The translations under genes and the position numbers were made by a program. A DNA stretch of 64,000 nt from positions 13,702,001 through 13,766,000 of the forward strand of contig NC_081331.1 of the NCBI RefSeq assembly GCF_022539665.2. The letters are read 5' to 3'. A model generated the notes under the pieces. That model made no database searches, was not told the DNA's origin, and was given only the letters and a program-made list of their open reading frames with translations. The DNA comes from Daphnia carinata (Eukaryota). Below are positions 8,251-60,253 of the stretch, piece by piece. The first letter of the stretch is position 1. Each line of letters begins with the position of its first letter.

Positions 8251-8310
8251 CACTCTGGAACAAAGTTTGTGTTAACGTCCCTGCTCTCACCCTATGATGA
8301 GACTAGAGAC

Positions 8311-35993: not shown

Positions 35994-36792
35994 CATTCAA
36001 ATCAAATTTTGCTTTGGGTGTCACCCATTCAGATAGGCAGCTTATGTAATGTATATGGCAAGTGAATGAAGTATGGTGTTCTGGTATAGTTTACAGCTGC
36101 CGTGCTGATTCCACTGGTTCCAATCTTTGTTATTATCCATTTAATTTTTTATTTATTTGGAAAAGGTGGTTTCCGTCTTTTAGCATACACTATGGTAACT
36201 AACCCCCTGTTTTTTTTGTTATTTCCATGAATAGCGTTGTATCCATAACGTTGTGATTCTGGATTAATTCATTATTTTAATATTAACACCGCAACGCCGA
36301 CAGCGTGATGGCTCCTGGTCCTATCCATTTCGTGGCAGCCTATGATGGTTTTCGAATCCTTACTTTACCTAGAACCTTGAATTATCAAGAACGCCCCGAA
36401 CTCATCTTTCTACCCTCTGCATGGTATACTCAGGTGAACACCTTGGAGTTAGTCAGGAATTGGCGCTGGTATGTGCGTGCACGTCCAATTTTCATTTGAG
36501 TGAATTTGACGGTAAAGCGCTCACGCAACTACCGACATTGGAAACAATTGCAGTTTAAATCGAACCACACGCGCCATCCATTTTTTTCACTTCCTTAATT
36601 TCAACAATATTGATGATTTTCAATCAATAAAAACGCGGAACAACAAACAGAATGACACATTTGTATAGCCTTCTGTTGCATTGTAAGCCATATTTCTATG
36701 GCTACCGACGGACACGTTTAGCACAGGAATAAATAGATTTCATTTGTCTTCAGGACGGGCAGTACACGCTCGGCTAACACCACTTCCTCACC

Positions 36793-38322
36793 ATGTCTGT
36801 GTTTGATCAGTTACGTCCATTCGTCAGCCTTTGTCAAGCTTGCGGAATGTTTCCTTATACAATTGAAGAAAACTTAACTACAAAGAAATTTGCGAAATTC
36901 AGCTTCTCTTTCAGGCATGCGATCACCTGGTGGTTCTTGATGGTCATCAGTTTGCAAGTGACCGTTAGCGTCGGCATCATATATTCATCTATGGAGCAAA
37001 TAGGCAACTTGACAAGTGACCAAAACATGCCAATCACGGCTACCATTTTATTTGCCGTCAACTGGCCTTTCTACATATTGCAAATGTTCACAACTCGCTG
37101 GATCGTGTTCCATTATCGTCGGCTTCGAAACGTAGTGAATACCGTGCAAGAAGTGGAAAGGCTTTTCGGAGAAGAATTTGTTGTGAGGCACAAGAGCTCA
37201 ATTACGAAAATATTTATTATCAGCTTCATTTTCATTGTTACAATAGTTAGCAAACATGGAAGATGATTTCGAAATATAGGTTTTTAAAAACCTCTTTGCT
37301 TACATTTCAGGGTATAGGTGTGCTGGTTGTTATGGTGCCAGTTTACAGCTCGTTCAGTGTGGCAGATATGAACTGGATGTTCGTTGCAGCTTTCCTTTCA
37401 ATTGTGGCATTAAACAGCGTCATGTTTGACAGTACATTCCTTTTGATTCACCTGTCTTATTACATTATTGGCCATTACATGCGGCTCGTCTTGTGGGAAC
37501 CCATTGAGAACAGTGGCGAATTTAATCGGACTCCAAGCGAAAGGTGTCATTATATTTAGAATTCCGTGTTTTGACTTGAAGTAAATCTTTATGATTTTCA
37601 GGACAAGAAGAATGCAATGGCTGAAACAAAATGTCCTGATATTCGATTATCTTTGTCGAGCCACTTCGGAGCTGAACGATATTTTCGCGTTCCCTGTTTT
37701 TTACATTGTGACTACGAAATTTATCTTTGTTGTCAGTATGGCTTATGCCCAGATACAAATTATTATTCATCCAAACGTTGTTTTGGGAAATTACTGGTTG
37801 ATGTTTCCTTTCCAATTCGTAGTGGACTGGGCCCGAATATTGGTAGTTCTTACTGCCGCCGATATACCTGCCAAACAGGTTAAGCTATTAAATAATTGAT
37901 ACGAATAACAATATAATCACGCTAAATTTTGGTCATTAGGTTAATCTTCTCCATGAAAGAGTAATTGTCACGTCCTGTTCCGGATTTTACCAAACATTAG
38001 ATGAAAATATTTCAGTCCGCTTTCAATTACAATATAAACTTTCTGCATTAATAAATTGGCCTGCTTTAATGACGATTACTTACGTTTTAGGTTGCAACTA
38101 TCCTAATGCAAATTGACGAAAATCGCGTCCGCTTGTCGGCTTTTGGGCTGTTTAATGTCGGTACTCATCTTATCCCAGCAGTAAGTTTACACTTCTTCTA
38201 AATCATTTGGCTGATGTTTGGATATCCATATTTCATCAATTAAGTTATTGTACCTCATGTATCTGAATTTTCAGCTAATGGGCGCGGCCGTGACTTACCT
38301 GGTTATTCTTATTCAGAATTAG
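36793..38322 (+). CDS. Gustatory receptor (7TM chemoreceptor)
   Basis: MSVFDQLRPFVSLCQACGMFPY; multiple TM segments; ELNDIFAFP; C-terminal RLSAFGLFNVGTHLIPALMGAAVTYLVILIQN* with the three short phase-0 terminal introns typical of Grs. Confidence 0.92.
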
Positions 38323-39283
38323 CAAATTTTAAAAAAGTTGTGTCTTAGTCAAAGACGAGTTAATCTGGCTTACCCAACACAAGAACTGCTCCATCTCCTT
38401 GTACTTCATACACATCGTATCAGACCCACCCAAAACCCTTCTACAACTTCGATGGAACGCTGCATGTACCCAATGGCTCCTAAGTTTGCAAATTGTAAAG
38501 CTCTAGGACGCACTTTGTTTGGATTGTCAGCAACAATTAAGATGTCTTTTATTAATAAGCAAATAAATGGCCCTAAAACTTTATCGAGATCCATATTATT
38601 TATGCATTCGTAGCGTATCACGCTAGCTTCGTGCATTCTAGCTCTTTCAATCATTCCTGAGCTGATGCATCTAATGCACTTGGTAATCTGCCAGCCTATC
38701 AGATTTTTCTTACTTCAAGTCCCCTCCATTCGCCCGCGTGACTTGTTCGCTTCGATTAGCTTATCTGGTACTTCTTAATCTGTGAAATGTATTGATTACG
38801 ACGTTTGCTGCTCTTAAGATATGACTTGCTGCAACCTGCTATCCGATAGCCTTGAATGTGGGTCTGAAAAAGGTTTCCTCTCCCCCTGCGGTAAGACCTG
38901 TTTTTTGGTACCCTTACCTTTTTGTTTGAATATTGTTATCTTGATATAGAATATGGAAGTTGATATGTATGGGGAGAACATGGAAAACCTTAGACGAAGG
39001 CGGCTGGGAACAAAACCGCCAACACTTATCAGTCACTATAGTTTTGTTTCAGCGGGCAAACCTCTGTTTATATCTTGAAAGATTCAAGCAGTGTTATCAG
39101 CAGCCAACGGAATCTTGCAGATAGAATACCGGCAACGGTCAAGGAAATGGCGTCGACTAGAAGTTTCGTTCGAGAATAGCGAACACCACAGTTTCTTGGC
39201 TGTTTTATATCCTACATCTATGCGTTTAAGTGCAAGATCATTTTTTTAATGCTTCAGCATTCGTTGATTAACAGAAAAAGGCA

Positions 39284-40937
39284 ATGCCGAACATCATACA
39301 AACGGTGAGATTGTATTCATTTAAGCTGGTTTTGTACGATCCACGTAACTTAACTTTTATGGTTGTTGTCTTGCCGGGTTTCACTGAGCTACAGACTTTG
39401 AATTATCCAGCGCTAACTTGCAATAATGGAGAGAACAATATCTGGATTGCTTGTTCAATCCTAGAGCAGGTCAATTCGCCAATTGGCGATACAGAAGCCT
39501 CGTCCCTCAGCAACGAGGAAAAACAAATTACCGAAAAGCTTCTGAACGAAACCAAATGCTGTGGCTACTTTATCACGCACGTCTCTAGCATAGATTTCAA
39601 GTAAGAGTCTTTCTGCCCCAAGCAACTCATGCACAAGTTGATATAATCTATGAAATGCAAAATTATTTTAAATGTTACTTTTTCTTTCCATTAGATGCTT
39701 ATATCCAGAGACGTTTAATGATCAATTGGACACTTATATCCTGAAACATGCAAAGGAAAACAACTTCCTGCAAGACATTTGCTACCAATTGGTGGATTGC
39801 GTGTCATGGCTACATGAACGGAGCATTTACCGCAATAGTAAACTTCATCCTGGAAACATTTTCATCAAGACTTTTCACAGTCAGTGGAAAGTAAAGCTTA
39901 TAGTTTCCGAAAATCCTTTTCACAATTTGGACCAAGAGTACATCAATTTGTGGTCGGAAATCAATCCGGATCAGGATTTGGCACCCACGAGGGACGGAAC
40001 TGCCATCCAGAGAGACCTAGCTTCCGTAATCATCCTATTGTTTTTTATCCAGTCAGCCGGCGCTCATCCTTTTCAAATAACTACCCCTGTTGATCCGCCA
40101 CAGCCGAAAAAGCACCAAGGCGTAAAGGAACAAATTGAAAGGCACACATTCAGTTTAGTTGCCTTGGATAGAAAATGCTTTTGTCAAAGCCAAAGCGACA
40201 ACTGCGAAAATCCGCAATGCAAATATCGTTTTTGGGTCAATATGCTGGCCAAGGATTGTACGCATAGTAAGCTAACCGAAGTCTTTCATAACAAAACAAG
40301 TTCATATACCAGAGAATCGTTACGAGAATTTATGGAGCATCCCTTTTTCTGGAAGACTTCCGGAGTTCTGAGGTTCATCGAGCAATCATCAAACTACTTG
40401 AAAGAGGCACAAGATAAAGAAAAAGAAAACAAATTTGGTTATTTTTCGCCAAGTCAGTCGAACAAACGGGGACAGCGTCAGTTGCCAAGCGGTCCATCAG
40501 CTGCCACAAGGGCAATGGAAGAGGTTATACCGTGGCGACTTGATAGTGACCTTTTGACGAAAATTAAAACGAACTATAAAAACATTTTCGAGTATTTACA
40601 TGAAAAACCTCCTAAGAAATTTTTACCGTGTATCACAATTTATTACGAACTTCTCAACCAAATACGAAACAAGGTTTGAAATGCAATTTCGGATGTTAAA
40701 TCATTTATCTTGTACATTGTCTAATCGACATTCACGTTATTTGCATGACAGAGTTCTCACTGGAATGAGACGACTGCATGTGGAACTAGAGCCAGAGAAG
40801 ATTTGGAGAGAATCACGTTTGGAGCAGATAGTAATATGGATGTTCAGCATAAGTATTGTTTGTTCTGGAACATACATTTCCCCAAACTTATTCTCTACAC
40901 ATGGAAAAACCTAAAAGATGTAGTTGCGAGTCAATAA
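39284..40937 (+). CDS. IRE1/RNase L-like pseudokinase-KEN ribonuclease protein (A1)
   Basis: Degenerate kinase (LQDICYQLVDCVSWLHERSIYRNSKLHPGNIFIK; no HRD or DFG; GAHPF), then KEN: HPFFWKTSGVLRFIEQSSNYL..LLNQIRNK|SSHWNE..FWNIHFPKLILYTW. No signal peptide or TM. Confidence 0.8.
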
Positions 40938-42079
40938 ACATGTCAAGAAATGACACAGTTTTTCTATCCTGAAACCTGTTCGCTTTTAATTGATGGAAAA
41001 GGTAGATTTATATGATTATCTTTTCAAAAAGATTTTTCAGGTGCCCAGAATCCCCCGTTGTTAAAAATTCAGAGCGCTTGTGTAAAACAAAATTCTTTAT
41101 CAGTCGCCATAGCGCAAGTTGCAACGGATGACCTCTTTAAAAACCAGTAAACGCGTGGGATAAAATAGATCGAGTTGTGATGTTCACGTTGTTATCGATC
41201 CTTTGATAGCAACGCTGATAGCGACTGTAAGCCGGGTTTCGTTCGTTTTAGAAGTCCACACCGCCATTCTGGAAGAGTGGTTTAAAAAAATTTCTCATTA
41301 CAATTGCAGTTGGCTATGCACACGCCAACCTATCTTTGTACAGGCAGTTACGTCTGCGTGGATCTTTTGAATAGTTAGCTTCAACGCTTATTGAGCGACC
41401 TTTGCATGAAATTGCCGAAACATTGACAACCTTATGCACAGGCCTTTCAGAGAGTGTTGAATTTAACTATTCCCAAAATCCCAAGTTAATTCATTCACCA
41501 AGAAATCTGAAGCTAAATTTTCATTGTAAAGTAAGTTTCTTTCTTATTTTTATTTGTCGGAGAATGTTGTTGTCGTGTCGTTGTATTAAATATTGTTTTG
41601 GACGTTAGCGCACGCATTCCATTAGAATACATTTCCCAGACGATACTTAGGGTAGGCGTTATCTTTTAGCAATAAAAAAAAGTATGGAGGCTTACCCATC
41701 CTGCCACATCTTCCAATGCCTTGTTGGGTTTTCAGTCGTATCACAAGAGGCCCGATGTCTGTGCGGATAAACTGATAGACTTACACGCCGTACCACAATC
41801 ACTTTGAGAGGATAAGGGTGGGACTAAAAACGCCGGTTTTAGGCCAACTCACGTAGTATACGCATCAACAGAATTTCAGTTTTGCATTGAAACCATGAAA
41901 ATCAATTGCAATATTCAGACTAATTTTGCTACTACGGTGACTTTACGAAGTCACGTGAAAGGGAAGAGAGATTTAACATAAACTGCTTCTCTTTATGGCC
42001 TGCGTGACACAATAATTAATAATTTAATTCTAAAAAAAAGCATTTGTTTTTTCTGCTATCTGCCTTTACGCTTTGTAGG

Positions 42080-45000
42080 ATGACCATATTAGACGTTGAG
42101 TTCAATTCGGATGAGAGAAGAACTCGAAATCGGAATGCAGTTGAAAAGATCAGACAATTGACGGAACTGTTGGCTGACGTACATTCTCAAGGAAAAGAGT
42201 ATGATCAACCAATCCCGTCATCTTTCATTCCTCACCTCACTGGGGGAGAGGTTTGCGACATCACACCAGACGTGTCTGAACTTCAATCCGAATGTTCAAA
42301 TGAATGGCGGCGTGCAGAAGAAAAAGATTTGAAGTCAGGGGACATATTTTCTTTAGGATGCTACTTTTACTACGTGATCACTGGTGGTCAACACCCGTTC
42401 GGGAAGAAAGGCCATCGCACGCTGTTAATCGCTAACAATCTGTATGACTTGACAGCATGTCGAGATGGGCCTTTAAAACAACTCATAGCTAGGATGATTT
42501 GCCGTGATAGCACAAAACGGCCCAGTTCATCGGATCTGCTGAACCACCCCTACCTTTGGAAAGAAGACCGGGCGGAAAGTTACCTGGTGTCATTAGGTGA
42601 CAATCTGGACGAGAATAGTGAAAGGTATCAGATATGGAAAGACACATTTCTATTTTCATTCGAGTTGCGTGCCACTAACTTTCACATGGTTCGAGAAAAT
42701 TTTATTACAAAAAGTATTTTGAGTATCTTGATGGATATCAAGGTACGTGACTGCTCTTATATTGTGTCTGCCAAATTGAAAATCAATAATAGTAACATTT
42801 TACTGTGACATAAAGGAAAAGAAAGAAACGGCCTTAAATGCCTGTCAACTGTTTCCGGACTTGCTATCAACTGTTTACTTTAACGAGAATCCTGACGCCA
42901 TCCTAGAAGAAATCAAAAGTTCATGCCCAGAAACTCTCGGCAATGTGCTAATAGCAAATGATTGCTTTGCTGGTGTCCTGCCAGATATCGGGATCGAGAG
43001 GCGTCACGGGCGATTCGGGGCGTATCCTGTCCACGTTATGCAATTTCCGGTGATCCGCCACACCGATGATTCTATATCATTAATGACACGTCTGAGCTGC
43101 TTGAATCATCCAAATTTGTTGCAATATTTTTACCTTCGCGAAAACTCTGACAAAAAGTATTTTCATTTCATTTCACATCACTGCCTCTCTATATGAAATT
43201 GCGATTACACAATCTTTTGGTTTTTCTAGTTTGGTGTTGGCTTGTGAGCCGTTCGATGAAGTACTCAAAACTTGGATGGAGAAAAACAGCCAACTTACCT
43301 TAAATGAAGCAAAGGAAATTTTAATTCAAATCACGTTAGGTCTCGTGTACTATCATTCTAACGAACTCATTCACGGAAACCTTACATCGAGCCAAATTGC
43401 TATAACCAACAGCAACAATGCTGTTACTGCGAAGATCTGTAAATTTCTGACTGATGGCAAGTTACATTATCTGCTGTTTTACAAGCACTTGAATCACATT
43501 GTTGGCACACTGGATTCCGATATTTCAATTCACTATTAACCGTGACCTCATTTGCGTTTGCAGAAAAAGACTGTACAGAGAATTCATCTTCCACGATGCA
43601 AAATGACATTCGAAAACTGGGCCAAATTTTTGCTGATTTATTGCGACGAACGAAAGACGTGCCACCAAGCAGCCTTCATCTTATCCAGTCGATGAAAGAT
43701 ATTAGGGATGAATGTGTTCCCCCATCGGTAGCAATCTTCTACCACCCGTTCTTCTGGTCACCCAAGGAAACCGATTACTTTCGTCGGAAACGTCATATCG
43801 GCGGCCAACCAAATCCTAATATCGATGGAAATTCGTGCACGGCAAGCGTACGTCATCATTACGAAAATGAGCCCAATTCTAAACGTGTAAGTATTTTCAC
43901 CAATTTCTGAACTACCCATTGCATAGCTATTACAATTATTTCAAAGAAAACCCAGTTATTTTTTTCTCTGGATCGGTCAACTGTCATTTGAATTGCCGTA
44001 CGACAGGAAAAATGGTGTTGCGTGTTTATGTATGCATACGTTCATGCAATTATCTTTATGCAGCCTGCTTCTGACTCCGCGACGAAAGTGCAAACATCGT
44101 CTGAGATAGACAGGTGGCTAAAAGGGCAAGAAACCCAAAAATCTGCTTTTCCAAATTTCTATTACCCATTCTACAATTTTCCTACAAGGGAAAAGGTAGG
44201 TTTCCGTTGTTTGTATTGCCTTAACTACCTCATGGGTACGAATATCATTTATCAACCTGCATCTTTGCATTCATCGCCACACTTCCTCAGTCCAGCGATT
44301 ATTATTTTTCTTTAGCTTTCGGCTGGAACGCAAGAAAATATAAACAGGCAGATTGCATTGCTAAGCAAAGAACAGTATGCAGGTAACCATTTGCAGCGTT
44401 TTATTTCTAAATTTAAAAATAAATGTAACCAATACATTATTTTGCACATATTTTTATTTTAATCATTTCAAACGTCAAATGAAGTAGAAAATCAAGGGCC
44501 TCATGGTATCCAAAACTATCTCGAAAACTATTTTAAGAAATGGGCACAAGCTACGGAAGATTCTGAAGCGCCTGAACAAGTCACGAAGCATCCCGCTCCC
44601 GGCATCCCGCTATTGATTCTTCAGCATCCCGCTAGTGATTCTTCAGGAAGAACAGCCATGCACCTTGCTTGCCATTCTGATCACTTCTACGACTCGGCCA
44701 AGAAACTGCTGGAATTGGATTGCAACCCAAACATCGCAGATAAAAATGGATTCGTACCTTTGCACGTTGCTGCTCTCAATAGCTCGTTTAAGATTGCCGA
44801 ATTACTAATCGAGAACAAAGCTACTATTGACTTGTGCAACAACAAAGAATTAACAACACCTCTTTTCTGTGCCGCACTCAGCAACTCAGTTTTGATTAGC
44901 GAGCTGCTGATGAAAATGGGCGCTGACACAAATAAAGTGGATGCCTTTGGGCAAACTGTCCTTCACATTGCTGTGGTAAAAAATTCGGTAAATGTGGCGA

Positions 45001-45629
45001 AGCTTCTTCTAGAAAACGGTTGTCAGAAAAATGTTAATGCAGTTGATGATTTCGGCAAAAGTCCTTTACATATTGCCGTGTTCCACAACTTGATACAAAT
45101 GGCGCATCTGCTGCTCGACAATGGAGCAAACCCTAACGTTACCGAACCGGGGAAAAATGCTATTTCTATCCCTGTACTGCATCTTTCCGTGAAAAATAAA
45201 TCGCCCCAAATGATGGAACTGCTGCTCAGGAAAGGTGCTAACCCAAATTTAGTGACCTATCAAGGCGACACTCCATTGCACGTAGCTGCTGTTCTCACCC
45301 CGACCTGTCAAATCTGTTTACAAATGGTGAAGTTACTTATCGACTTGAAAGCAGACGTGAATGCTGTTGATGGGGGGGGCAGAACTCCGCTTCATCTTGC
45401 AATATTGAACGCGGTCGGAAAAATGGAAGGACGCGTTGCAGCAGATCATGGTGCACGAGAAGTCGTCAAGCTCCTGATTGCTAAGGGCGCGGATATCGAA
45501 GCTGATGACGACTTTGGTTCAATTCCAATTGATTATGCGAGATGCAGTAACAAAGAGGACTTCATCAAATTCATCGAGAAAAGCAGCAACGAGGAAGACT
45601 TTTCTGGGATGATGCCACTGGGCGCGTAG
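42080..45629 (+). CDS. Pseudokinase / degenerate-KEN x2 plus C-terminal ankyrin repeat protein (B1)
   Basis: IRE1-like C-lobe GDIFSLGCYFYYVITGGQHPFG..RPSSSDLLNHPYLW; KEN remnant FPDLLSTVY; second pseudokinase LNHPNLLQYF..QITLGLVYYHSNELIHGNL..HPFFW; then multiple ANK repeats. Start codon inferred. Confidence 0.75.
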
Positions 45630-46019
45630 CTAAGTCCAGCTGAGAAGACAGTATATTCCGAGTTGAAAACAAAATTTAACAAAGACCGACACTGGCATGA
45701 AGTAAGCTACTCGATAAACATAAACGTTGCTTATGAACAACAAGAATTGTATTAGAGTTTTTAGACACTGTGCTGATCCAGCACTACACTGATCATAATT
45801 TCAATCACATGTGTCTTTGTAATGGGCTTTGTAGGCTGCAAAGACAGTCATCTGATTTTTAAAATCCCTTAATAATTTCTCTATGCAAATAAACAGGTAT
45901 AAGCTACTCAATTACTGTCCGATGAAATCGGTATTAAACACACATATCCATACGATGCTTAACTTAATAGTTCTCTGTATTAAATAATACAAAGCCAAAT
46001 ATGGGATAACTACTGTAAG

Positions 46020-46195
46020 TAGTGGGTGTGCACGACAGCAGGTCTGAAACTCTCCGTTTGTGTGCTGCAGAATATTTTTACGCTTCATCCGGACTGGGCG
46101 GGCTGTCATGCTGGCCTTGACGGCGTTAGCCTCGCTAGGAACGGCGGCTACCAAGTTAGCAATAGAAGTAACAGGAAAGGGCATTCGTTCCATGA
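46020..46195 (-). pseudogene. 3' fragment of the LRYR-precursor paralogue at the duplication junction
   Basis: PVTSIANLVAAVPSEANAVKASMTARPVRMKRKNILQHTNGEF matches PVTPIANFVAAVASEVDAVKASLTAGPVRMKRKNILRYRNGEF of 58339-58911; no 5' part. Confidence 0.8.
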
Positions 46196-47001
46196 GAATT
46201 GGTGATTTACAACCCCTTCAGCGTGGCAAACATGAATTGGATGTTCGTTGCAGCTTAGTTTTCAACTACCACATTAATCGGCGTCTTGTTTGACTTCTTG
46301 ATTCTTAAGCTGTGAACTGTATTGATTACGACGTTTGGTGCTTTTAAGATCTGGCTTGCTGCGACCTGCTATCCAATAGCTCCGAATGTGGCTCCGAAAA
46401 AGGTTACCTATTCCCCTATGCGGTAAGACCTGATTTTGGTGCCCTTACTTCTTTTTTTGTTTTGAATAGTGCTACCTTGATATAGAATATGGAAGTTGGC
46501 ACGTAAGGGAGGAACATGGAAAGACTAAAGCGAAGGAGGCTGAGCTAGATTTCACTGGCTATTTTCTTACTCTTCCCATTGTACCTCAATTGTAGGCAGG
46601 CGGTTCGTCATTGACTTTTTCTTTCCCGTTTTTTTAGACAACTGTATGATTTTCCCAACGAAATTGTTGAATGTAAAGTTATTGCGGTTCCGCATGCACG
46701 TAATCGTTGTTCAGTTAGTACCGCGCACACTTATCAGTCACTAGAGTTCTATTTCAGCGAGCAAACTTTTAGTTACATCCCGAAACGTCAGAGCAATGTT
46801 ATCAGCAGCCAACGTAATCTTAAAGATAGAATACTAACAAGGGGCAGGGAAATGGCGTCGACTTCAAGTTTCGATCGGGAGTAGCAAACATCACAGTGTC
46901 TTATAAGAAATATAGCCGTTTTACATCCTATACCTATGCACGTATAAGTACAAGATCATTTTCTTAATAATTTAGCCATCGTTGATTGGCAGAAAAAGAC
47001 A

Positions 47002-48683
47002 ATGTCGAACATCGTACAAACGGTGAGATTGTATTCATTTTAAATTGATTTTGTACGATCCATGTAACTAACCTTTATGGTTGTTGTCTTGCCGGGTTTC
47101 ACCGAACTACAGAGGTTGGATTATCCAGCACTAACTTGCAATAATGAAGAGAACACTAATTTTCAAGGCATGTCAATTGCAATCCAAAAACACGTCAAGT
47201 CAGACATAATAAAAATTAAGTCATCTCGTTCGAGCGAAGAAAAAAAACGACAGCTAATTTTCGAAATACTTCAGAACGAAAACAACTGCCAAGGTTACTT
47301 TTTCGATTACGTTCCTTCAATGAATTTCAGGTAAGAGCCTCACATCTCCGAGCAACTCAGACACAATTTGATATCGCATATGAATTACAAATATTATTTG
47401 GAATGATTTTTTTTTCTTCACTAAGGCACGTATATCTCGAAACGTGTAATGATACATTGGACACTTATATCCGGAAACATGCAATGAACAGCAACTTTCG
47501 ATGGACCATACTGCAGGAGATTTGCTGCCAATTGGTGGATTCGGTAGCCTGGCTGCATCAACGAGGGTTTTATTACAATGGCCAACTTCATCCTCGTAAC
47601 ATTTTCATCAAGACTTGTAACAGTCCGTGGAAAGTAAAACTTCAACTTTCCGAAAAGGCAAATCCCTTTCACGGTCTGGACACAGAGTACGTTAATTTGT
47701 GGTCTGGAATAAAAGAATCGGACTTATTGAACAAATCTGCGGACGAAATTGCCATCCAGAAAGATCTAGTTTCCGTAACCATGTTGATGTTTTTCATCCA
47801 ATCATCTGGCGTTCATCCTTTTCAAAGAACTAGCACTCTTGATCCGGTCGAACGGGAAAACTACCAATGCATACAGAACCAAATTAAAGAGGGCATATTT
47901 GCACTAGATGCCTTGGATAGAAAATGTTTTTGTGCCGACGAAAACGAAAACTGCGAAGAGACGCAATGCAAATATCGTTTATGGGTCAACAAGCTGGCCA
48001 AGGATCATACATATGCTATGCTAACCGAGCTCATTCGCGAAACAAAGTCATATGACAAAAAATCGTCTGAAAAGCTTATGGAACATCCCTTTTTCTGGAA
48101 GACTTCAGGAGTTCTGAGGTTCATCGAAAATTCATCAAACTACTTAAAGGAAGCAAAAAATAAAACGAAAGAAAACTTATTCGGTGTTTTTCCGCAACGG
48201 CAGACAAAAGCAAGTGGAAAAATTGGATTTAAAAAAAATTCATCAGCTTCTATCCAGCAAAGCCAAGTTCATCAACCATGGATGCTGGATCATATCATTT
48301 TGACAAAACTTGAAAACAACCATAAAGACATTTTCAACTATTTACATGAAACGCCTACAAGGACCGGCCAGACATCTATCACAAATTTTTGCGGACTTCT
48401 GACCCAAATACGGAACAAGGTTTGAAATGCAATTTCATATTCTAAGAACCTGTGCTAGACTTTGCCTAATCAACCCTCACGGTGTTTTGTGCGGCAGAGT
48501 TGTCATTGGAATGAAGCAACACCATGTGGACCTGATGCCAAAAGAAATTTGGAAAATCTAAGCTTTGCAGCAGATAATGATATGGATGCTCGTCTTAAGT
48601 TTTGTTTGTTCTGGAACATACATTTCCCCGAACTTATTGTCTACACTTGGACAAACCTTAAAGACGTAATTGTGCATCAATAG
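47002..48683 (+). CDS. IRE1/RNase L-like pseudokinase-KEN ribonuclease protein (A2)
   Basis: Same exon structure as A1; WLHQRGFYYNGQLHPRNIFIK; HPFFWKTSGVLRFIENSSNYL..LLTQIRNK|SCHWNE..FWNIHFPELIVYTW. Confidence 0.8.
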
Positions 48684-49879
48684 GCATGCCAAGAAATGAC
48701 TGGTTTTCTATCCTGAAACCCTGTTTGCCCTTAATTGGCAAAGAAATTATGTTTTATCTGACCGCCTTTTTTCAAAAAGATTTTCCAAGTGCCTAAGTTA
48801 AACCCACGTTTTTAAAAATTCAGAGCACTTGTGTAAAACGAGCTTCGTTATCAGTCGCCATAGCGCAAGTTGCAACAGATTAAAAAGGAGTCTTTGTCAA
48901 GTAAATATGTGAGACAAAATACATCGAGTTGCAACGTCCACGTTGCTATCTAGGCTATACGTCGAGCAACACGTACAACGGCTGAGCCATTCGATAAGCA
49001 CACTCATCAAAATTATGATTAGCTAACTACAGTTAGCTATACAAGCGCCAACGCGCCTTTGCGCAGGCAGTTACGTTTGTGTGGATCTCTTGAATAGTTA
49101 ACTTCAACACTTATTGAACGGCCTTTGCATGCAATTGGCAAGACATTGCTAATTTTATGCGCAGAACTTTCAGGAAGTGTTGATTTTAACTATCCCAGAA
49201 ATCGCACTTTAATTCTCCCGCAAGAAAACTGAGACGAATTTCTTATCGTGTATTAAAGTAAGTTTCATTACTATTTTCTATTGTATACTACTCTGCAATA
49301 AGTGTTTCTAAACTATAGTTATTAAATATCGGTTAATACGGTGTGACCGGAATATTACATCTGTTAGAATCTGAAGCATAGGTGCAAATCCCAGAAGAAA
49401 TAACGTTTTTGGGTTTTAAAAAATTTAACTAATGATTTTTTACGCACCGTTTTCTCCCACCAGAAAAAAAAATAGTGATATGTAGGATGGGCCTTATCTT
49501 TTAGCATTAAAAGCTATGGGCGCTTACCCGTCCTCTTGCTGCCTCCTACTGCCTCACTTTCAGTTGTCCTATCACAAGACGCCATATGTCTGTGCAGATA
49601 AATTAATAGGCTTACACGTCGTATCGCAATCACCTTGACAGAATTGGGGTGGGGGGGCTAAACTGCGAGTTTACGCCAAGTCACGCAGTAGACGTACCAA
49701 TATGAATTTCCCAATTTCACAGGGAAATCAGAACAAACAACTACAATAATCTAACCAATCGTGCAACACAAGGGTGACTTTCCAAAGTCACGTGAAAGGA
49801 GAAAGAGATTTACGATGAGCTGCTTTTTTAAAAATGTGAATGCCATATAATACTCTAAACCAAATCATTGCTTTATAGG

Positions 49880-52800
49880 ATGGCCATAGGGGAACTTGAT
49901 TTTTATTCGGATCAGAATAGAAAAATTCGGGTTCTTGAAAAGAAAGTACAAGAACTTCTGATCCAATCCACTGAAAATTTGGTACGCATCCATTCCCAAG
50001 GAAATGTGCATGGAAAACCAATCATCCCAATTTCTTTTAACCCTTATTCATCCGGGGAAAATGTACGTAACATCAAACTAAACGAGCCTGAACCAAACGA
50101 ATTTTCAAATGAATGGCGGCCAGCTGAAGAAAAAGATTCGGAGCCATCTCAAGCTGGGGACATATTTTCGTTGGGATGCAGCTTCTACTCAGTCATCACT
50201 GGTGGCCAGCATCCGTTCGGGAAGCCAGGCCATCGTGCCCTGTTTATCGCTAAAAATCTATACGATTTGTCTGAATGTCGAGATGAGCAACTTAAAAAAC
50301 TCATAGCCAGGATGATTTGTCATGATAGAACAAAACGACCCAGTTTATCCGATCTGTTGAACCATCCGTACCTTTGGAAAGAAGAACGGGTGGAAAATTA
50401 CTTAATGGCATCAGCTGAAAATCTGGACGAGAACAACGAAAAGTATAAAATATGGAAAGACACAGTTCTATTGTCGTCAAGCGCACCATCCTTTGATTCT
50501 GACACAGTCCAAAAAACTACGATTGTAAAAAGTGTTGTAGAAATTCTGATGGAATTAAAGGTGAATGGCTGCTGTAATATTTCCGTAGTGCAATGAAAAC
50601 TTAAGAGTTTGATTCCTTTCGGCATAGGAAAAGAAAGAGACGGCCCTAAATGTCTATCGGCTGTTTCCCGATTTGCTGTTCTCTGTATACTTTGCCGAAA
50701 ATCCCGGTGTCATCCATGACGAAATCGAAAATTCAGGACCAGAAACATTCGGTAATGTGCTGATAGCAAATGATTGCATCAAAGAAGTCCAGCCGACTAT
50801 CGGGGTCAAGAGACGTTATGGCCGATTCGGATCGCAACCCGTCCATGTGATGCAATTTTCGGTTTTTACCGCTGAATCGATATCCTTAATGAAACGCCTA
50901 AGCTGCTTGAAACATCAAAATTTACTGCGATATTTTTACCTTGCCGAAAACCCTGTCAAAAAGTACATTCAAATCGTTTTATATCATTGCCTAACTAAAC
51001 AATTTAACTATAAAATCTTTTTGTTTTTCAGTTTGGTGTTGGCTTGTGAGCCGTTCGATGAGACACTCGACACTTGGATAGCGAAGAACAGTCAGCTGAT
51101 AAACTTGGAAACGGCAAAGGAAATTTTAACTCAAATAACGTCAGGTCTCGTGTACTACCATTCTAACAATCTCATTCACGGGAACCTCACATCCAGCCAA
51201 ATCGCTATAACCAACAGCGGAACTCTTACTGCAAAAATCTGTAAATTTCTGATTGATGGTAAGTTACATTATCTGCTGTTTTACAAGCACTTGAATCACG
51301 TCAAAAAATGTATTTCAAAATTTCAATTCATTATTAACCATCCCCTCGTTTGCCCTTGCAGAAAAAGACTGTACAAAGAATCCATCGCCCACAATGCAAA
51401 ACGACATTCGAAAACTGGGCCAAATTTATGCTGATGTATTAGAACAAACACTGGACGCGCCACCATGCAGCCGTCATCTTATCCAGTCGATGCAAGATAT
51501 TAGGGATGAATGTATTCCCCCATCGGGAGCAATCTTCTGCCACCCGTTCTTTTGGTCATCCGAGATCACCGCAGATTTTCTTCTGGTAGCTGGTGACTTT
51601 TACAAAGAAAATCCGAATATCGATAGAGATTCGCGGCTTATTACTGTGCCGTCACCGGCACCCGAACGTCAACATCTCAAAACAAACAGATCGGCCATTG
51701 AATCCTTTTTGCAACATGTAAGTATTTTCACCAATATTTAGACCGCACATTGCATAGCTATTAGAATTATCTTAAAGAAAACACAGTTACTTTTTTCTGT
51801 GGATGGCTCAACTGCCATTTGAAGGGTCGTATGTGCACGACAGGCAATGGTGCTGCATATTTTATGTATACATACAGTTTGTACGTTCATGCAATTATCT
51901 TTGCGCAGGCCACCCATGACTCCTCGGCAGAAGAGCTAATATCGCTTGCCATGGATTTGTTAAACGATTGTCCCGAGCTAATCACCCAGACGTGGCTTAG
52001 GTTGCAAAAATTCAAATCCGCTGATGAATCTGAACTTGCAGATTTCTATCACCCAATCTACGATTTTCCTACAGATGAAAAGGTAGGTTTCCGTTGTTTG
52101 TGTTGTCTTAACTAACACAGGTAAGAATATCGTTTACAAACCTGAATCTTTTGTATTCATCGGCATACTTACTCAGCCCAACGTTTATTATTTTCTCTTT
52201 AGCTTGTGGATGGAACGCAAGAGAATATGAACAGGCAGATTGCATTGCTAGGCAACGAACAGTATGAAGGTGACCATTTGTAGCCTTTTATTTCTAAATT
52301 TAAAAATAAATCTAACCAATAAATTGCTTCGTACAGAATTTTTCATTGAAGGATTTCAAACGTCAAATACCCTGGAGAACCAAGTGCCTCATGTTACTCA
52401 AAACTATCTCCACAACTATCTTCAGAAATATGCACTAGCTATGGAAGATTATGGAACGACTGGAAAAGTCATAAAGCATCCCGCTATTGATCCTTTCGGA
52501 AGAACAGCCATGCACCTTGCTTGCCACTCGGACGACTTCTACACTTCGGCCAGTAAATTGCTGGAATTTGATTTCGATCCAAACATCGAAGATAAAAATG
52601 GATTCGTACCTTTGCATGTTGCTGCTCTCAATAACTCGTTTAAGATTGCCAAGTTACTAATCGAGAACGAAGCTATTATTGACTTATGCAACAACAAAGA
52701 ATTAAGAACGCCTCTTTTCTTTGCCGCACTCAGCAACTCAGTTTTGATTAGCGAGTTGCTGATGAAAATGCGCGCTGACGCAAATAAAGTGGATGCCTTT

Positions 52801-53889
52801 GGACAAAGTCCCCTTCACATTGCTGTGGAAATAAACTCGGTAGAAGTGGCGGAACTTCTTCTGGAAAACGGTGCGAATGTTAATGCAGTAGACGATTTCG
52901 GCAGAAGTCCTTTACATATTGCCGTGTTCCATAACTCGATAGAAATGGCGTATCTGCTGCTCAACAACAGAGCCAACCCTAACGTTAACCAACCGGGGAA
53001 AAAAGCTACTGCTGCTCCTGTGCTGTATCTTGCCGTGACAAAAGAATCACTCCAAATGGTAGACCTTCTGCTCAAGGCAGGTGCCGATCCAAATTTAACC
53101 ACATCACAAGGCGAAACTCCATTGCACGTAGCTGCGCTTCTCAAACCGACATGTCCAATCCGATCACAAATAGTAAAGTTACTTATCGACTGGAAAGCAA
53201 ATGTGAATGCTGGGGATATGAGGGGTCGAACTCCGCTTCATCTTGCAACATTCAACGCGGCTGAAGAAATTGTAAAACAGTTATTGGAATACCAATTTAT
53301 CGAAATCAATTCAAAGGACAACATTCGAGGGATAACTCCCTTACACTTGGCTGCTTGGTATGGTCGTGAAAACATAGCTGAATTACTTATTGGCAAAAAA
53401 GCCAAAGTTGATGTCGAAGATAAAAATCGCCAAACACCTCTCGAATACGCTGCTTCATCAAATTCCGTTAATGTAGCCAAACAGTTATTAACAGCCGGTG
53501 CCGCAGCAAAAACACGGAATTACCAGAAGAGTTACCGTTCACCGTTACATATTGCAGCAGCCCATGGTGCACGAGAAGTCGCCGAGCTCCTGATTGAAAA
53601 AGGCGCGGATGTGTATGCCACTGACGGGTTTGATTTAACTCCGTTTCATTATGCGGAATGCCGTAACCAGAAGAACTTCTTTCAGTTCCTCCAGAAAAGC
53701 AGCAATGAGAAACATTTGTCTCATTCTTTAATGAGCAAGCAACTTAGTCCAGCAGACATGGCCGAAATTTATGAATTGACAAACAGTTTTCAACATATGA
53801 CTCTCCCTGGCATTGAAGTAAGCTTGTCTGGCTTTCAAAACCAGGTCGATAGTATAACCGTTGCTTATCAACAAGTATTGATGTACTAG
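49880..53889 (+). CDS. Pseudokinase / degenerate-KEN x2 plus C-terminal ankyrin repeat protein (B2)
   Basis: GDIFSLGCSFYSVITGGQHPFG, HPYLW, FPDLLFSVY, YHSNNLIHGNL, HPFFW, then a longer ANK array than B1. Confidence 0.78.
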
Positions 53890-55330
53890 AAATTTTAGAC
53901 ACTATGCTAATCCAGCACGCTGTTGCTCATCATTTTAATCACATGTGCATTTGTAGTGAGTTTTGTAGGCAGTAAGACAGTCACCTGATTTTAAAAATCC
54001 CCCCCAAATTTTTGCTAAGCGAATAAACAGGTTAATTGCCGATCAATTAAATTGCTATTAATCCGCCCACCCCCAACACATACACGCATTCATACGATGT
54101 TTATCTTAATAGTGGCCTGTACTACAATACGTCGAACATGGAATAACTGCCATAATATAGCTATCAAACTATTTAATCGTTTATTCGAACGATCCCTACC
54201 TGTAAAGTGCACCTGAGAGCCCTCATGAGCCGGTGTTTAACGTCGGCCAGAGTTCATTTGCGCTCAACTGTACTAAACCGGTTTTATGGAAATAAACTCT
54301 AGTAGTCCTGACTGATGTTGTGATTGTTATGAATGCCGAAGGAGACCAATTAAATCAAACCGGTACTGCCGTTTCCAAGGTTACTCAAAGCTAAGCAGAG
54401 TGCACTAACGGCCAGACATTCCTGACGTTTTAGTAATTACTTTCCCGTTTTCTACCTGCGACGAAGGTCAATATTGAGACTAGCAGACACACAATACCGT
54501 TTCTACACGAGAGCAAGAAAAAGAACTAAAGAAAACAAAAAACATCCCTTTAACAAGGTCGACATCGTTACGTAAGCCATTCATAAAAATGTTCAGCCTT
54601 CCAGACTTGTACCTCCATCTTCGGGAAATATGCGATTTCTATTAAATTGAAGCAGCTGAAAATCGATTGAGTAATTTCTAGGATTTCCTACCCTTACTTA
54701 AAAATATGAAGGCAGCATTAAACCTTCACAATTTGAACACCTTCGTCTTACTGAGCTTGTCAACGGCTATGGAGTCCTTTAGCTAAGGTTATCAATGAAG
54801 GTGAGAGCGCAAGAATGATAGAAATTATGCCTAAATAGGTGTGGTCTTTACTATAAATAAACAACGAATAAAACTACCCACCCAAGCCGATGAATTTGGC
54901 AATAAGAGCAAAAAGAAAAAGAGTGTAAATAGACACGTGATTAATACCACAATGATAACGTTCCAAACACGTTAATCTATTAAGGAGAAGACTAAATTTT
55001 GATTTTATGCAGAATACGCGTTGCTGCGGGTTTTCCCAGCAACATTTGCGTTTCGCTCGACATTTGTTGCATTCGCAGTGCAACTACCCACTTCATCAAC
55101 TACCTGCAATGACCTCCATGTAATCGACAAAGAACGAAACCAGTTTTCATTTTTCGCATTTATTTATCATGGCTTTAAGTCTACACGGTGAGTTCCAGCT
55201 GAAGAGATGCTATAGCACCGTTCAGAGTTAGCTCGTAGTTACGTTGTTAGAATTTAAAAGTAACTGAATCATGTAATCGCTTGATGGCTCGTCCGAAAGT
55301 GTTCATTTCCTAGTCGTGGCTTAGGCAGGT

Positions 55331-56018
55331 TCAGTGAGCGGGCATAGTCTCGATGAAAGAAGGTTCGTTCAGGCTCCTCCCGACTCTCTTCCTATTAGCA
55401 CCGTTTCTGTACCGCAGTATAATTTGACGGTCCGCGCGAGTTGAGGTTGCGCCCAATTTATCAAAGGCCGGAAATAAAGGGATGCTGCGTCCTCTCCTGG
55501 AACTACCTCTGTATCGCAGTTGAATTTGACGCTCTTTGCGGGCCGGAGTGGCAACTTTGTGAGCAGGGCGTTCGGACAACGAACGGTCATTCAAACTTCG
55601 ACCATTTCTTCCACCGCCTCTGTAACGCAATTGAATTTGACGCTTCGCGCGAACGGGAGCAGCGCTCGATTTAGGGTCCACGATAGTACCAGGCTGAACC
55701 GCGTTAGCATCCACCTGGACCGTTGGATTGAAGTAAGCCCAGGACCCTATGTTATTACCTGCAATGTCACGATAATAATTGGAAGGCTGGGCAGTGTAAG
55801 CGTAAACGTTGGACGGGGCGAACTGGCCATGAGAGAGCCACTGCACGGGGATAGTGGAGGGTACCGCGTAACCGTGGTAACCGCCGATAAACTGGGCCTG
55901 TGCGGCCACAGCAAACAGCAAAACGAGGGCTATCTGTAGGTGACAATTCAAATAAAAAAAAAAATATGGTACTGTGATTAAAGAAGGAGATGTTTGGATG
56001 GCTTACCTTAGACTTCAT
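55331..56018 (-). CDS. Secreted multi-peptide precursor with three QIxLRYR repeats
   Basis: MKSK|IALVLLFAVAAQA signal peptide (4-codon first exon). RAKR-QIQLRYRGGGRNGR, RKER-QIQLRYRGSSRRGR, RADR-QIILRYRNGANRKRVGR. TATAAAA (~56092-56098) and TCAGT upstream on the minus strand. Confidence 0.8.
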
Positions 56019-58338
56019 GGTGTAGCCAAATGTTGAGTGAAGCGCTGGCGAGCTTGAAGATGATACTGAAGAGAGCTGATTCTTCCGTCTCTTTTATACG
56101 GATTCACCTGACGAAAACAATTGCCATTTCTGTCAACAAAATCCCCAGCGATGCGCATTATTTTATTTATACGTTGTTGACCACACCCCGAAATCGGCAG
56201 ATGATACACGAGAAACATGTATAGCCATTGGTGCTTCGTATTTACGAAGAAGTCAAACTGCTTTGTATTGCTATCCAGCGATCCTGAAGGCGTTGCTGGT
56301 CGAGCTTTTAGACTCCGTCGACTCTGAATCTGGCTCTGCAACATTCAGACAACTCGACTGTATTTTCAGATAATCATACGTAATTGTTTGTGTACTTCTC
56401 CGCTTCTGCGAATGAAGACGCTGTCGGCAGAGAATTTAGGCGTATTGTAATTGGCGATAGTATTTTTCTGATTGGGTTTTTTGCTTTTTATATTTATCTT
56501 TGTTTGCAACAGTTGCCAATGAAATAATTAAATTGCTTCGTTCTTTAAATGGCGTTGTTTCAACTTTAAAGATGTCCAGGTAGCCAAAAGGGTAGTGCGA
56601 CACGATGGCAGTAGCAACCGCTTATGTAAATTTCATGCTACTAGATGTCCTTAATTGATTAAATAAAAAACAACAAAAAAGGAGAATACAGAAAAGACGC
56701 TTAGAGGTGAAAATGGTTGAAGAAGGTTAAAGAATACCTCTGGCTATATACTGTGATAACATTAAACCTGCTCCCGATTTTTTTTTTTTGGCTATAGATG
56801 ATTGAAGAGATGAGCCCCACCCTGGCATTCGAGGAATCTTCAAACTACTGTGTAATTATATTAAAATTACTTCGAATTGCTATACATGTTTCATTCCAAT
56901 TTAGTTTAGAGTAGCTGTCACTTACCATTGTCCGACAAGCTCAATTCTCGCTAATTTTCCTATCAAAGGAAAAACGCTTATAAGGCTAGTATAAAGGCAA
57001 CGCTCTACGTTCACATGAACTGAGAACCGCACTCATGGCGAATGCGAACGATTTTAGCTAACAAAAAATCTGGTTGGAATTTGCTGGTTGCAAACTGTCG
57101 GAATGATTCACGAATTTTCTATGCATTGCTGCGGACGTCTAAAATCGTTTGCGACGAATATTGGAGGAGCACTTGATGGTGTACGCAAATCAATTGAACG
57201 ATAATATCTATTAAGAAAACGACTCACAAGTAGGCTTCATGTATATTCACTAATGGTGGATGGTATTATTTAATTGATGAAATTAAATTTGGCTTTTGAA
57301 GCGCTGAGATCACGTATACCGTATCCTTTCGATTCTGGAAATCAGATGGACAGTTTGCGCTCGCTATTTATAACAAAGAGGCGGACGTTGGTCGAAATAA
57401 ACACGTTTCGTGTAGGAATAGCAAGGTGTTTTTCCATTCATGATACCCCAAACAGGGAATAGAAAATTGGGCAATAACTCATTCGAAATTATTAGCACTA
57501 TGTTAATGTTTGCTGTGACGGAGCCGTTGTCAAAAAACCCAATCCGTGGAGTTTTTTTTTGCGTACGTGACTGCAGCCTTACCAACTTGTTTTAAAACTT
57601 GTGTTTTCCCCATTTGAATCGGCACTTCAGGTGATTCACCTCCATTGTTTGTCTCAATTGTAAATAAGGCGTCGTCTGAACAGGTTTTTAGCTACTGGAA
57701 GCCTCTCGTTGTGTTTGTTTTAGATAAACGCTGGAAGGGGAATGCGAAACAGGTATTCGGAATTTGGGGGTTACGTTCAAGGTTAGTTCTCATACGGCGA
57801 GCTAAAGAGAAGCACGTGCCCGCTAAGCAAACGTAACGGACAAAATTCTTGGCGCCATACTTTTTCATGTGAAATTTCGAATAGTCATGCAATGGCCACA
57901 TTAGGTAATTTTTTTCTGGAATGCTGCCTTTTACTGGCATTCTTTTAATATTCTGACTGTAAAGTGACGAAATTTCTTCAAAATTTCAATTTTACATCGA
58001 AGACAAGTTTCTAATCCAGGTAAACAGCTAAGAAATCATCGCAAACTACCTCAACAATTTGATTTAGAAAATTTACCAAATGCTATTTTTAAATTTATTT
58101 CCTTTTCCTCCCAAGGCTAACATGGCATTAAGAAACAAGGGCGGAAAGCGTCGTCAAGGTAATCTGAGTGAAACAGGTATTAGTTTTGCTAGTCATCCAC
58201 AGAGAGTGCTCCAATTCTTTTGTTTATGTTGAACAAAAGTGGTTGTATTTTTTTTTATGTTGAGTGGCATGGGGTACAGTGAACAAGGTCAACCACAACT
58301 GATGACAAGAGTACAAATTTCTTTTTACAGGCCTTTAA

Positions 58339-58911
58339 TTAATCCCAAAATGTCGTGTCCATAGTTGATTCATATTCGTCATATGGCTTTTCAGACAAGC
58401 ATAACGTAGGTGTGCACAACGTAGGCCTGAACTCGCCATTTCTGTACCGCAGAATGTTTTTACGTTTCATTCGGACTGGGCCGGCTGTGAGGCTGGCCTT
58501 GACGGCGTCAACCTCACTTGCAACGGCTGCTACAAAGTTGGCAATAGGAGTAACAGGTAAGTCATCAGGAAGAGCATTTGTTCCACGAAAATTGGTGACG
58601 TAAGACGTGCGAACGATGTCATCACTTCCCGAGGCCCATGGTCCGAATGAGTTACCGACGCCATCAACAAAGACGGGGGCAGTTCCAGCGAGGATGGGAT
58701 AGGCAAAATCCACCTGGCCCAGTTGGTCCTGCAGGACCCATCCTAGTGGGATGGCGACCGTTTGCAGTTGGTAGTTTTCATGGCTACCAAGAAACCGAGC
58801 ATCAATGGTCGTTGCCAAAAGTAAGGCATAAACAATCTAAATAGCAAAATTGATCAATTCTCGAATTAATGCATGAAATGTAAATTTTTATTCGCTTACT
58901 TTACACATCAT
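58339..58911 (-). CDS. Secreted paralogue of the LRYR precursor (single repeat)
   Basis: MMCK|IVYALLLATTIDA, with the same 4-codon first exon and gtaagc donor. Shares IP..W, D..GN..G.WA, PVR.KR and ILRYRNG. Confidence 0.75.
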
Positions 58912-60170: not shown

Positions 60171-60253
60171 TATCAGGTGTGAGGATCGAACTCACGTCTC
60201 AATATAGAGACCAGAACTTAAGTCTGGCGCCTTAACCACTCGGCCAACCTGAT
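60171..60253 (-). tRNA. trnL-TAA: tRNA-Leu (anticodon TAA)
   Basis: ATCAGGT/ACCTGAT acceptor stem plus A discriminator; D arm GCCGAGTGGTTAAGGC; CCAGA-CTTAAGT-TCTGG anticodon arm; long variable arm; GTGAG-TTCGATC-CTCAC T arm. Confidence 0.93.

What the first reader, a model, noticed from the sequence alone, without database searches (positions are those of the whole stretch)
55331..56018. Candidate novel peptide precursor releasing pGlu-IxLRYR cationic peptides
Seen: a signal peptide, then three repeats each preceded by RxxR (RAKR, RKER, RADR), starting with Gln and ending in GR followed by S-[LI]: QIQLRYRGGGRN-GR, QIQLRYRGSSRR-GR, QIILRYRNGANRKRV-GR. Known: RxxR is a furin-type site, N-terminal Gln cyclises to pyroglutamate, and Gly before a basic site is an amide donor. 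Polypeptide precursors of this design occur among neuropeptides and insect immune peptides (apidaecin, Baramicin). It matches no arthropod neuropeptide family I recognise. Inference: a new neuropeptide or antimicrobial peptide family.
Basis: partly seen in the sequence, partly recalled or inferred. Interest (0 to 1): 0.75.

Follow-up and report, generated by a model that had tools for sequence, protein, structure and literature searches.

The report
Water-flea peptide precursor from cuticle gene
This water-flea gene is related to cuticle-protein genes but lacks most of their chitin-binding part, and it carries three repeats predicted to be cut out as short positively charged peptides, likely for defence, in an animal reported to lack known antimicrobial peptides.

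Summary
The locus is a two-exon Daphnia carinata gene (LOC130691671, 204 aa) with a signal peptide and three units, RxxR|QI(Q/I)LRYR...RxGR|S. All named homologues are Daphnia (six species), with 2-6 units. The N-terminus is a truncated R&R chitin-binding domain: it is 45% identical over 64 aa to an intact cuticle protein, and the two group together in a tree (100/100). Of 120 such cuticle proteins, 83 already carry one RxxR-Gln site, so the furin site and Gln are inherited. The cationic units, the Gly-Arg second site and the repetition are new (0 of 120). The units are conserved (74-89%, core pN/pS 0.14), while the R&R remnant decays (31-43%) or is lost. In a published D. magna table the closest homologue has 0-7 reads in 7 of 7 uninfected animals and 49, 179, 775 and 0 in yeast-infected ones. 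An intact cuticle relative goes the other way. Moult stage is an unresolved confound. Best reading: a cuticle gene turned into a Baramicin-like defence polypeptide (0.45). Rivals: a processed cuticle component (0.35) or a neuropeptide (0.1). Processing and activity are untested.

The parts
56181..56188 (-). GGGTGTGG upstream element, within a promoter block conserved in another Daphnia locus (L001)
   Evidence: the 8-mer occurs only twice in the 64-kb window (both strands), here and upstream of the paralogue, and also upstream in L001
56091..56099 (-). TATA box
   Evidence: conserved in L001
56007..56018 (-). coding part of exon 1 (MKSK)
   Evidence: L001 has the same short first exon and phase-0 intron, and L002 lacks the intron
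55934..56006 (-). 73-nt GT-AG intron
   Evidence: the spliced form matches NCBI protein P0002
55895..55933 (-). rest of the signal peptide (residues 5-17); the predicted mature chain starts with Gln18; near-identical to the signal peptides of Daphnia R&R cuticle proteins
   Evidence: cleavage site inferred from the sequence, no predictor run
55724..55843 (-). truncated R&R (chitin-binding) remnant, residues 35-74; the second half of the consensus is missing
   Evidence: no Pfam hit
55640..55651 (-). furin-type site 1, RAKR, homologous to the single site of the cuticle-protein relatives
55598..55639 (-). unit 1, QIQLRYRGGGRN + GR (net +3; predicted pGlu/amide mass 1398.76)
55529..55540 (-). site 2, RKER (minimal RxxR)
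55487..55528 (-). unit 2, QIQLRYRGSSRR + GR (net +4; predicted mass 1500.84)
55427..55438 (-). site 3, RADR (minimal RxxR)
55376..55426 (-). unit 3, QIILRYRNGANRKRV + GR (net +5; predicted mass 1838.09)
55159..55164 (-). AATAAA polyadenylation signal
58339..58911 (-). tandem paralogue LOC132087931: same exon layout, longer but degenerate R&R region, RMKR followed by one KNILRYRNG unit and a two-Cys tail
   Evidence: its unit is 83% identical in DNA over 29 nt to unit 3
46022..46205 (-). relic 3' fragment of the paralogue (78% DNA identity); no 5' part detected

Best explanation
The gene encodes a secreted protein related to R&R cuticle proteins but lacking most of their chitin-binding domain; it is predicted to be cut by furin into three short cationic pyroglutamyl, probably amidated peptides that likely act as inducible defence effectors. 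Shown: homology to cuticle proteins, decay of the R&R domain, conservation of the units and sites, and 2-6 units per gene across Daphnia. Inferred history: an R&R gene that already had one RxKR-Gln site was duplicated in tandem; the neutral tail after the site was replaced by a cationic unit closed by RxGR; the site-plus-unit cassette multiplied; the R&R domain decayed. Inferred processing: cuts after RxxR and RxGR, cyclisation of Gln, trimming of Arg, and amidation from Gly. Inferred action: the alternating QI(Q/I)LRYR strand and the Arg-rich tail bind anionic microbial surfaces at the epidermis or gut lining, or in haemolymph.
For: Homology: 45% identity over 64 aa to the Pfam-positive cuticle protein P0018. 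An HMM from 115 other cuticle proteins (closest clade left out) scores P0002 at 33.4 bits; the best of 357 shuffled or reversed controls scores 4.3. In a tree of 37 N-terminal regions, the family, the paralogue and the P0018-type cuticle proteins stand against 21 other cuticle proteins at 100/100. New features: 0 of 120 cuticle proteins have RxGRS or a second RxxRQ, and the 14 residues after their site have net charge -2 to +1 (83 of 120 scored), against +3 to +5 here. Selection: against 7 three-unit homologues the units are 74-89% identical, the N-terminus 31-43% and the spacers 23-68%; intact cuticle proteins show the reverse (R&R 73-95%, first 14 residues after the site 2-7 of 14, 6 pairs). 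Across 12 units from 3 loci, pN/pS is 0.14 for the QIxLRY core and 0.16 for RxGRS, against 0.89 for the six codons upstream. Beta-periodic amphipathy of QIQLRYR has shuffle p about 0.005. D. pulex paralogues P0021 and P0172 have lost the remnant and carry an amphipathic helical peptide in the same slot (p 0.002-0.003). Expression (PMC13587834 Table S1): APZ42_033775 has 1, 2, 3, 7 reads in controls, 0, 0, 6 in exposed-uninfected and 49, 179, 775, 0 in infected animals; permutation p 0.027 of 330. The intact cuticle relative APZ42_028475 falls in infected animals (p 0.003). Design precedent: Baramicin A (PMC8423362 passages).
Against: No peptide has been observed and no activity tested. The expression data are single adults with no moult staging in the methods I read. 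The infected animal with the most parasite reads (I521) has 0 counts. One control (C70) is raised in the same co-varying gene set, and the ecdysone-response gene E75 is higher in infected animals, so a moult- or brood-stage pulse fits too. The peak is only about 40 counts per million. The gene appears to fall under the authors' count filter, and their DE tables were not in the held file. No kappaB-type site lies within 500 bp upstream of the gene, the paralogue or L001. The peptides have only 3-5 hydrophobic residues in 12-15, which is few for membrane lysis. Sites 2 and 3 have an acidic P2. The 5' sites show weak codon-level signal (pN/pS 0.72, with near-fixed Arg codons). The Atlas's best feature hit is a 'Cuticle protein' cluster (0.82, a lead only). 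D. magna has a second copy (P0142), so one-to-one orthology of APZ42_033775 (63% identity) is not certain.
Confidence: 0.45

Rival explanations
1. A processed cuticle or matrix component. The gene is still an epidermal moult gene. Furin releases small Tyr/Arg peptides that pack, cross-link or self-assemble as beta strands in newly laid cuticle, or bind anionic matrix or mineral, at one short moult stage.
For: Descent from R&R proteins whose RxxR-Gln site is a cuticular trait (83 of 120). The same signal peptide. The paralogue's D. magna homologue is named 'Cuticle protein' by UniRef. Atlas leads: cuticle protein and GYR clusters, 0.77-0.82. The on/off expression could be a moult pulse, with E75 raised in the infected animals. 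N-terminal pyroglutamate in arthropod cuticle proteins is recalled, not checked here.
Against: The chitin-binding consensus is broken, and is deleted further or fully in homologues (P0003, P0004, P0021, P0172). Expression runs opposite to the one intact relative checked, and the target does not track E75 (highest E75 in I521, which has 0 counts). The amphipathic helical peptides of the D. pulex paralogues look unlike cuticle sequence.
Confidence: 0.35
2. A lineage-specific neuropeptide or hormone precursor: pGlu/amide peptides with a conserved N-terminal QIQLRY act on a receptor.
For: Paracopy design, invariant Gly before the closing Arg, and purifying selection on the core. The Atlas's feature neighbours of paralogue P0172 include neuropeptide precursor clusters at 0.85-0.89 (leads only, several unrelated families).
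Against: The amidated end varies among nine residues. No Pfam family matches. Named members are Daphnia only. The sites are RxxR rather than plain dibasic. The gene descends from a cuticle gene. Expression spans more than 100-fold in whole adults.
Confidence: 0.1
3. The protein works uncut or only partly cut, as a disordered Arg-rich secreted glue or filler.
For: Sites 2 and 3 in this gene have an acidic P2, and 12 of 56 family sites are minimal RxxR. The AlphaFold model has no confident fold (mean pLDDT 48).
Against: P4 and P1 Arg are kept on both sides of almost every unit (56 upstream by definition of the count, 55 of 56 downstream), while spacers diverge to 23-35% in 5 of 7 comparisons.
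Confidence: 0.1

Closest known systems
Branchiopod R&R cuticle proteins, 'cuticle protein 7-like' subfamily (PF00379), closest clade P0018 / D. galeata CAH0098351.1
   Same: Signal peptide, mature N-terminus (Q-F/L-I-G-G-Y), first half of the R&R domain, and one RxKR-Gln site.
   Different: The second half of the R&R domain, the PVQDTPEV repeat and the C-terminal motif are gone. The tail after the site is cationic, closed by RxGR and repeated 2-6 times; none of 120 relatives has this.
Drosophila Baramicin A (PMC8423362, passages read)
   Same: Secreted precursor of tandem related peptides between RXRR furin sites, N-terminal pyroglutamate, linked to fungal infection.
   Different: No sequence kinship found (no non-Daphnia relative). 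The peptides here are shorter (12-15 aa, against 23 for the synthesised Baramicin peptides) and Arg-rich. Toll control and activity are shown for Baramicin, not here.
Apidaecin-type tandem AMP precursors (named in PMC8423362)
   Same: Tandem cationic peptides with variable copy number released from one precursor.
   Different: Apidaecins are Pro-rich (recalled); these units have almost no Pro.
Arthropod paracopy neuropeptide precursors (general knowledge)
   Same: Repeated peptides with Gln starts and Gly amide donors.
   Different: The C-terminal residue is not conserved here, the origin is a cuticle gene, and the known range is one genus.

Membership tests
R&R cuticle proteins (PF00379) | Complete R&R consensus scoring above the Pfam cut-off | tested here: not met
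   0 Pfam families for the target; P0018 scores 38 bits against cut-off 25. The match stops at YFNP, before the YxADxxGF half.
R&R cuticle proteins (PF00379) | Homology with R&R proteins | tested here: met
R&R cuticle proteins (PF00379) | Chitin binding and presence in cuticle | not testable with these tools
   needs a binding assay and exuviae proteomics
Baramicin / apidaecin-type furin-cut defence polypeptides | Signal peptide plus tandem related peptides between RxxR sites | tested here: met
Baramicin / apidaecin-type furin-cut defence polypeptides | Sequence homology to Baramicin or apidaecin | tested here: not met
   No non-Daphnia relative is named; no Pfam hit; no PDB hit. No direct pairwise comparison with Baramicin was run.
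Baramicin / apidaecin-type furin-cut defence polypeptides | Induction by infection | tested here: inconclusive
   High in 3 of 4 infected and 0 of 7 uninfected D. magna, but moult stage is uncontrolled
Baramicin / apidaecin-type furin-cut defence polypeptides | NF-kappaB sites in the promoter | tested here: not met
   0 matches to two kappaB patterns in 500 bp upstream of 3 of 3 loci; simple patterns only
Baramicin / apidaecin-type furin-cut defence polypeptides | Mature peptides detected, with antimicrobial activity | not testable with these tools
   needs peptidomics and assays
Neuropeptide precursors | Conserved amidated C-terminal motif among paracopies | tested here: not met
   the residue before Gly is R in 32 of 56 units, H in 12, and seven other residues in 12
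Neuropeptide precursors | Neural or endocrine expression and a receptor | not testable with these tools
   no tissue data were reached

The most novel reading that the evidence does not exclude
This is the missing antimicrobial peptide family of Daphnia, born from a cuticle-protein gene. The chitin-binding domain was shed and the gene's own furin site became a multiplied cassette for cationic pGlu/amide peptides. The steps survive side by side in one tandem cluster: intact cuticle protein; degenerate R&R with one unit; remnant with 2-6 units; no remnant with a helical amphipathic peptide.
Probability: 0.38. Interest if true: 0.85.

Novelty: new variant of a known kind. Interest (0 to 1): 0.62.

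Why it matters
Daphnia is a main model of host-parasite coevolution. [quoted passage not shown] This locus gives named genes, peptide masses and cheap synthetic candidates that make the question testable. Whatever the function, it shows how a multi-peptide precursor can arise from a structural cuticle gene. It also shows that RxKR-Gln alone does not mark a neuropeptide: 83 of 120 cuticle proteins carry RxxR-Gln. I did not find that cuticular furin site or this family in print in the searches listed.

Tried and rejected
No whole genome is held, so there was no genome-wide paralogue count. No RNA holder was listed for the locus, which is no evidence either way. Pfam gave nothing real for the family (only sub-threshold hits). 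PDB sequence search with the family profile: 0 hits. The AlphaFold model had mean pLDDT 48 and no fold, so I ran no fold search. Of 8 hits I dropped P0019 and P0022, long repeat proteins without the unit. The metagenome scan confirmed 2 of 96 pattern matches, both short contigs, so it gave no synteny. Paper searches: QIQLRY, 0; six locus tags, 0; cuticular protein + furin + Daphnia, 0; Daphnia + cuticle protein + proprotein convertase, 0; five-term crustacean pro-protein search, 0. Searches gave listings with nothing on this family by title and abstract start. Supplement searches found nothing in PMC11331620, PMC9375365 (only tiny files held) or PMC10375369. PMC2222620 has no passage on cleavage. 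PMC4551569 passages gave nothing on this gene. Three papers were not held, and two DOIs I guessed led to unrelated papers that I did not use. The sigma-70 scan does not apply to an animal. The look-ups of earlier findings returned nothing. The paralogue's homologue APZ42_033788 shows no infected-versus-rest difference (p 0.50). No complex prediction was sent, as no partner is claimed.

Full report
Observation. The finding is a real two-exon gene on the minus strand: exon 1 at 56007-56018, a 73-nt intron, and exon 2 at 55331-55933. Its product is the 204-aa NCBI protein of Daphnia carinata LOC130691671. A TATA box and promoter blocks are conserved in another Daphnia locus, L001, which has the same intron; L002 lacks the intron. 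Of 20,000 shuffles, none gave two units.

Family. The first search returned 17 proteins. The search of 1.84 billion representatives returned 8, of which I dropped 2 as unrelated repeat proteins. A profile search returned 22, scoring only the 7,991 best candidates. Every named member is Daphnia: carinata, magna, sinensis, pulex, pulicaria and galeata. In 17 proteins the pattern found 57 units, 56 with an upstream RxxR; 55 of these 56 end in RxGR|S, and copy number runs from 2 to 6. So each unit is flanked by two convertase-type sites, with an invariant Gly where a basic residue would suit furin better. That points to an amide donor (inference). Of the 56 upstream sites 44 are R-x-K/R-R; in this gene only the first is.

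Origin. The weakest hit, P0018, carries the R&R chitin-binding domain PF00379 and is 45% identical to residues 13-74 of the target. A profile built from 115 other cuticle proteins, with the 5 closest left out, scores the target at 33.4 bits and the window paralogue at 34.7; the best of 357 shuffled or reversed controls scores 4.3. Of 17 family proteins, 14 scored above that control. A tree of 37 N-terminal regions separates the family, the paralogue group and the P0018-type cuticle proteins from 21 other cuticle proteins at 100/100. The tree is midpoint-rooted for drawing only, and six family rows fill under half of the columns. The signal peptides are near-identical. In D. galeata, the intact cuticle protein and a family member have accessions six apart (CAH0098351.1 and CAH0098357.1), which suggests linkage (inference). 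Of the 120 cuticle proteins examined (the best 120 of 294 hits), 92 carry R-x-K/R-R and 83 carry RxxR-Gln. None has RxGRS or a second RxxRQ, and the tail after the site is neutral. The furin site and Gln are therefore inherited; the cationic unit, the closing Gly-Arg site and the repetition are new.

A graded series exists. At one end is the intact cuticle protein. The tandem paralogue at 58339-58911 has a degenerate but longer R&R region and one KNILRYRNG unit, 83% identical in DNA over 29 nt to unit 3. The target has half the domain and three units. The D. magna and D. sinensis homologues P0003 and P0004 have a further deletion of about 35 residues. The D. pulex paralogues P0021 and P0172 have no remnant. 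The pair is also adjacent or close in D. sinensis (GHT06_009725 and 009727) and D. magna. The order of events is inferred, not tested with a rooted tree.

What selection keeps. Against 7 three-unit homologues, the units are 74-89% identical, the N-terminus 31-43% and the spacers 23-68%. In the paralogue, 22-25 of the first 26 residues after the site are kept, against 52-71% before it (6 pairs). Intact cuticle proteins show the reverse (6 pairs before the script stopped). Over 12 units from 3 loci, pN/pS is 0.14 for the QIxLRY core and 0.16 for RxGRS, against 0.89 for the six codons upstream. The 5' site gives 0.72, and these pairs are not independent. QIQLRYR has a strong beta-periodic hydrophobic moment (shuffle p about 0.005; 0.07 for unit 3). 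The first peptides of P0021 and P0172 are amphipathic helices (p 0.002-0.003). The precursor has no confident fold.

Expression. PMC13587834 (abstract, most of the methods, section 3.2, passages and part of supplement 1 read) sequenced single D. magna adults 12 days after exposure to the yeast Metschnikowia bicuspidata. APZ42_033775, the closest D. magna homologue (63% identity), has 1, 2, 3, 7 reads in controls, 0, 0, 6 in exposed-uninfected and 49, 179, 775, 0 in infected animals. Library sizes were 13.5-23 million for the 6 of 11 libraries I saw. The permutation p is 0.027. By eye, it is the only one of 214 neighbouring rows where three infected animals are at least sevenfold above all uninfected ones. 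The intact cuticle relative APZ42_028475 goes the other way, from 16,044-67,395 down to 27-3,846. Against an immune reading: I521, which has the most parasite reads and which the authors flag as dispersed on PC2, has none. One control is raised in the same co-varying set (for example APZ42_033696: 88 against 2-17). E75 is higher and EcR lower in infected animals, so moult or brood stage may differ between groups. The target does not follow E75 sample by sample. The paralogue's homologue shows no infected-versus-rest difference. No kappaB pattern lies upstream; the shared upstream word is GGGTGTGG.

Mechanism and odds. Furin-type processing into pGlu peptides is likely (about 0.85, inference from site conservation; not observed). 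I put the function at 0.45 defence effector, 0.35 processed cuticle component, 0.1 neuropeptide and 0.1 uncut protein. The defence reading rests on charge, amphipathy, copy-number turnover, the helical peptides of the paralogues, loss of the chitin-binding domain and one confounded dataset. The cuticle reading rests on descent and the moult confound.

Comparison with what is known. It works like Baramicin A, a precursor of tandem pGlu peptides between RXRR sites (PMC8423362, passages), but no kinship was found. It descends from R&R cuticle proteins but fails their defining test. It fails the usual neuropeptide test of a conserved amidated end. McTaggart et al. [quoted passage not shown] Searches for the motif, the locus tags and the cuticular furin site found nothing in the held library, which lacks most subscription journals. 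That pyroglutamate and propeptide cleavage are known in some arthropod cuticle proteins is recalled and unchecked.

Verdict. This is a new variant of a known kind (a furin-cut multi-peptide precursor) with a traceable origin in a cuticle gene, and a concrete candidate for the missing Daphnia antimicrobial peptides. Interest 0.62.

Noticed in passing
window 38772-54148, + strand: A tandem duplication of about 7.5 kb (70-83% DNA identity) of a gene region with degenerate kinase-like domains followed by ankyrin repeats, directly beside the finding.
   Followed up: partly
window 46022-46205, - strand: Relic 3' fragment of the paralogue LOC132087931 between the two kinase-ankyrin copies.
   Followed up: partly
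window 58339-58473, - strand: The paralogue's product after RMKR starts with Lys, not Gln, and has a conserved two-Cys motif: a candidate disulfide-looped peptide, kept at 22-25 of 26 residues in D. magna and D. sinensis. Its D. magna homologue is highest in exposed-uninfected animals and in one infected animal.
   Followed up: partly
proteins P0018-P0140 (not in the window): A large crustacean R&R cuticle subfamily carries one conserved RxKR-Gln site (83 of 120 with RxxR-Gln), suggesting routine furin cutting of cuticle proteins into two chains; not found in my paper searches.
   Followed up: partly
proteins P0021, P0172, P0173 (D. pulex group): Paralogues without the R&R remnant whose first peptide is an amphipathic helix ending in Trp before Gly-Arg: the most AMP-like members.
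   Followed up: partly
window 8200-23830: A cluster of related secreted-looking genes with a 'DFSPIFLAIVPIALFLG' or similar hydrophobic stretch followed by poly-Ala, poly-Gln and poly-Asn runs; no Pfam hit for the 3 ORFs tested.
   Followed up: no
window 832-1876 (-) and 36778-37266 (+): Pieces of an ionotropic-receptor-type gene (Lig_chan) and a gustatory-receptor-type gene (7tm_7).
   Followed up: no
window 60171-60253, - strand: tRNA-Leu (TAA).
   Followed up: no
PMC13587834 Table S1, APZ42_033778-033786: Several D. magna genes between the two homologues (033778, 033780, 033781, 033786) rise in the same infected animals; identity not determined.
   Followed up: no
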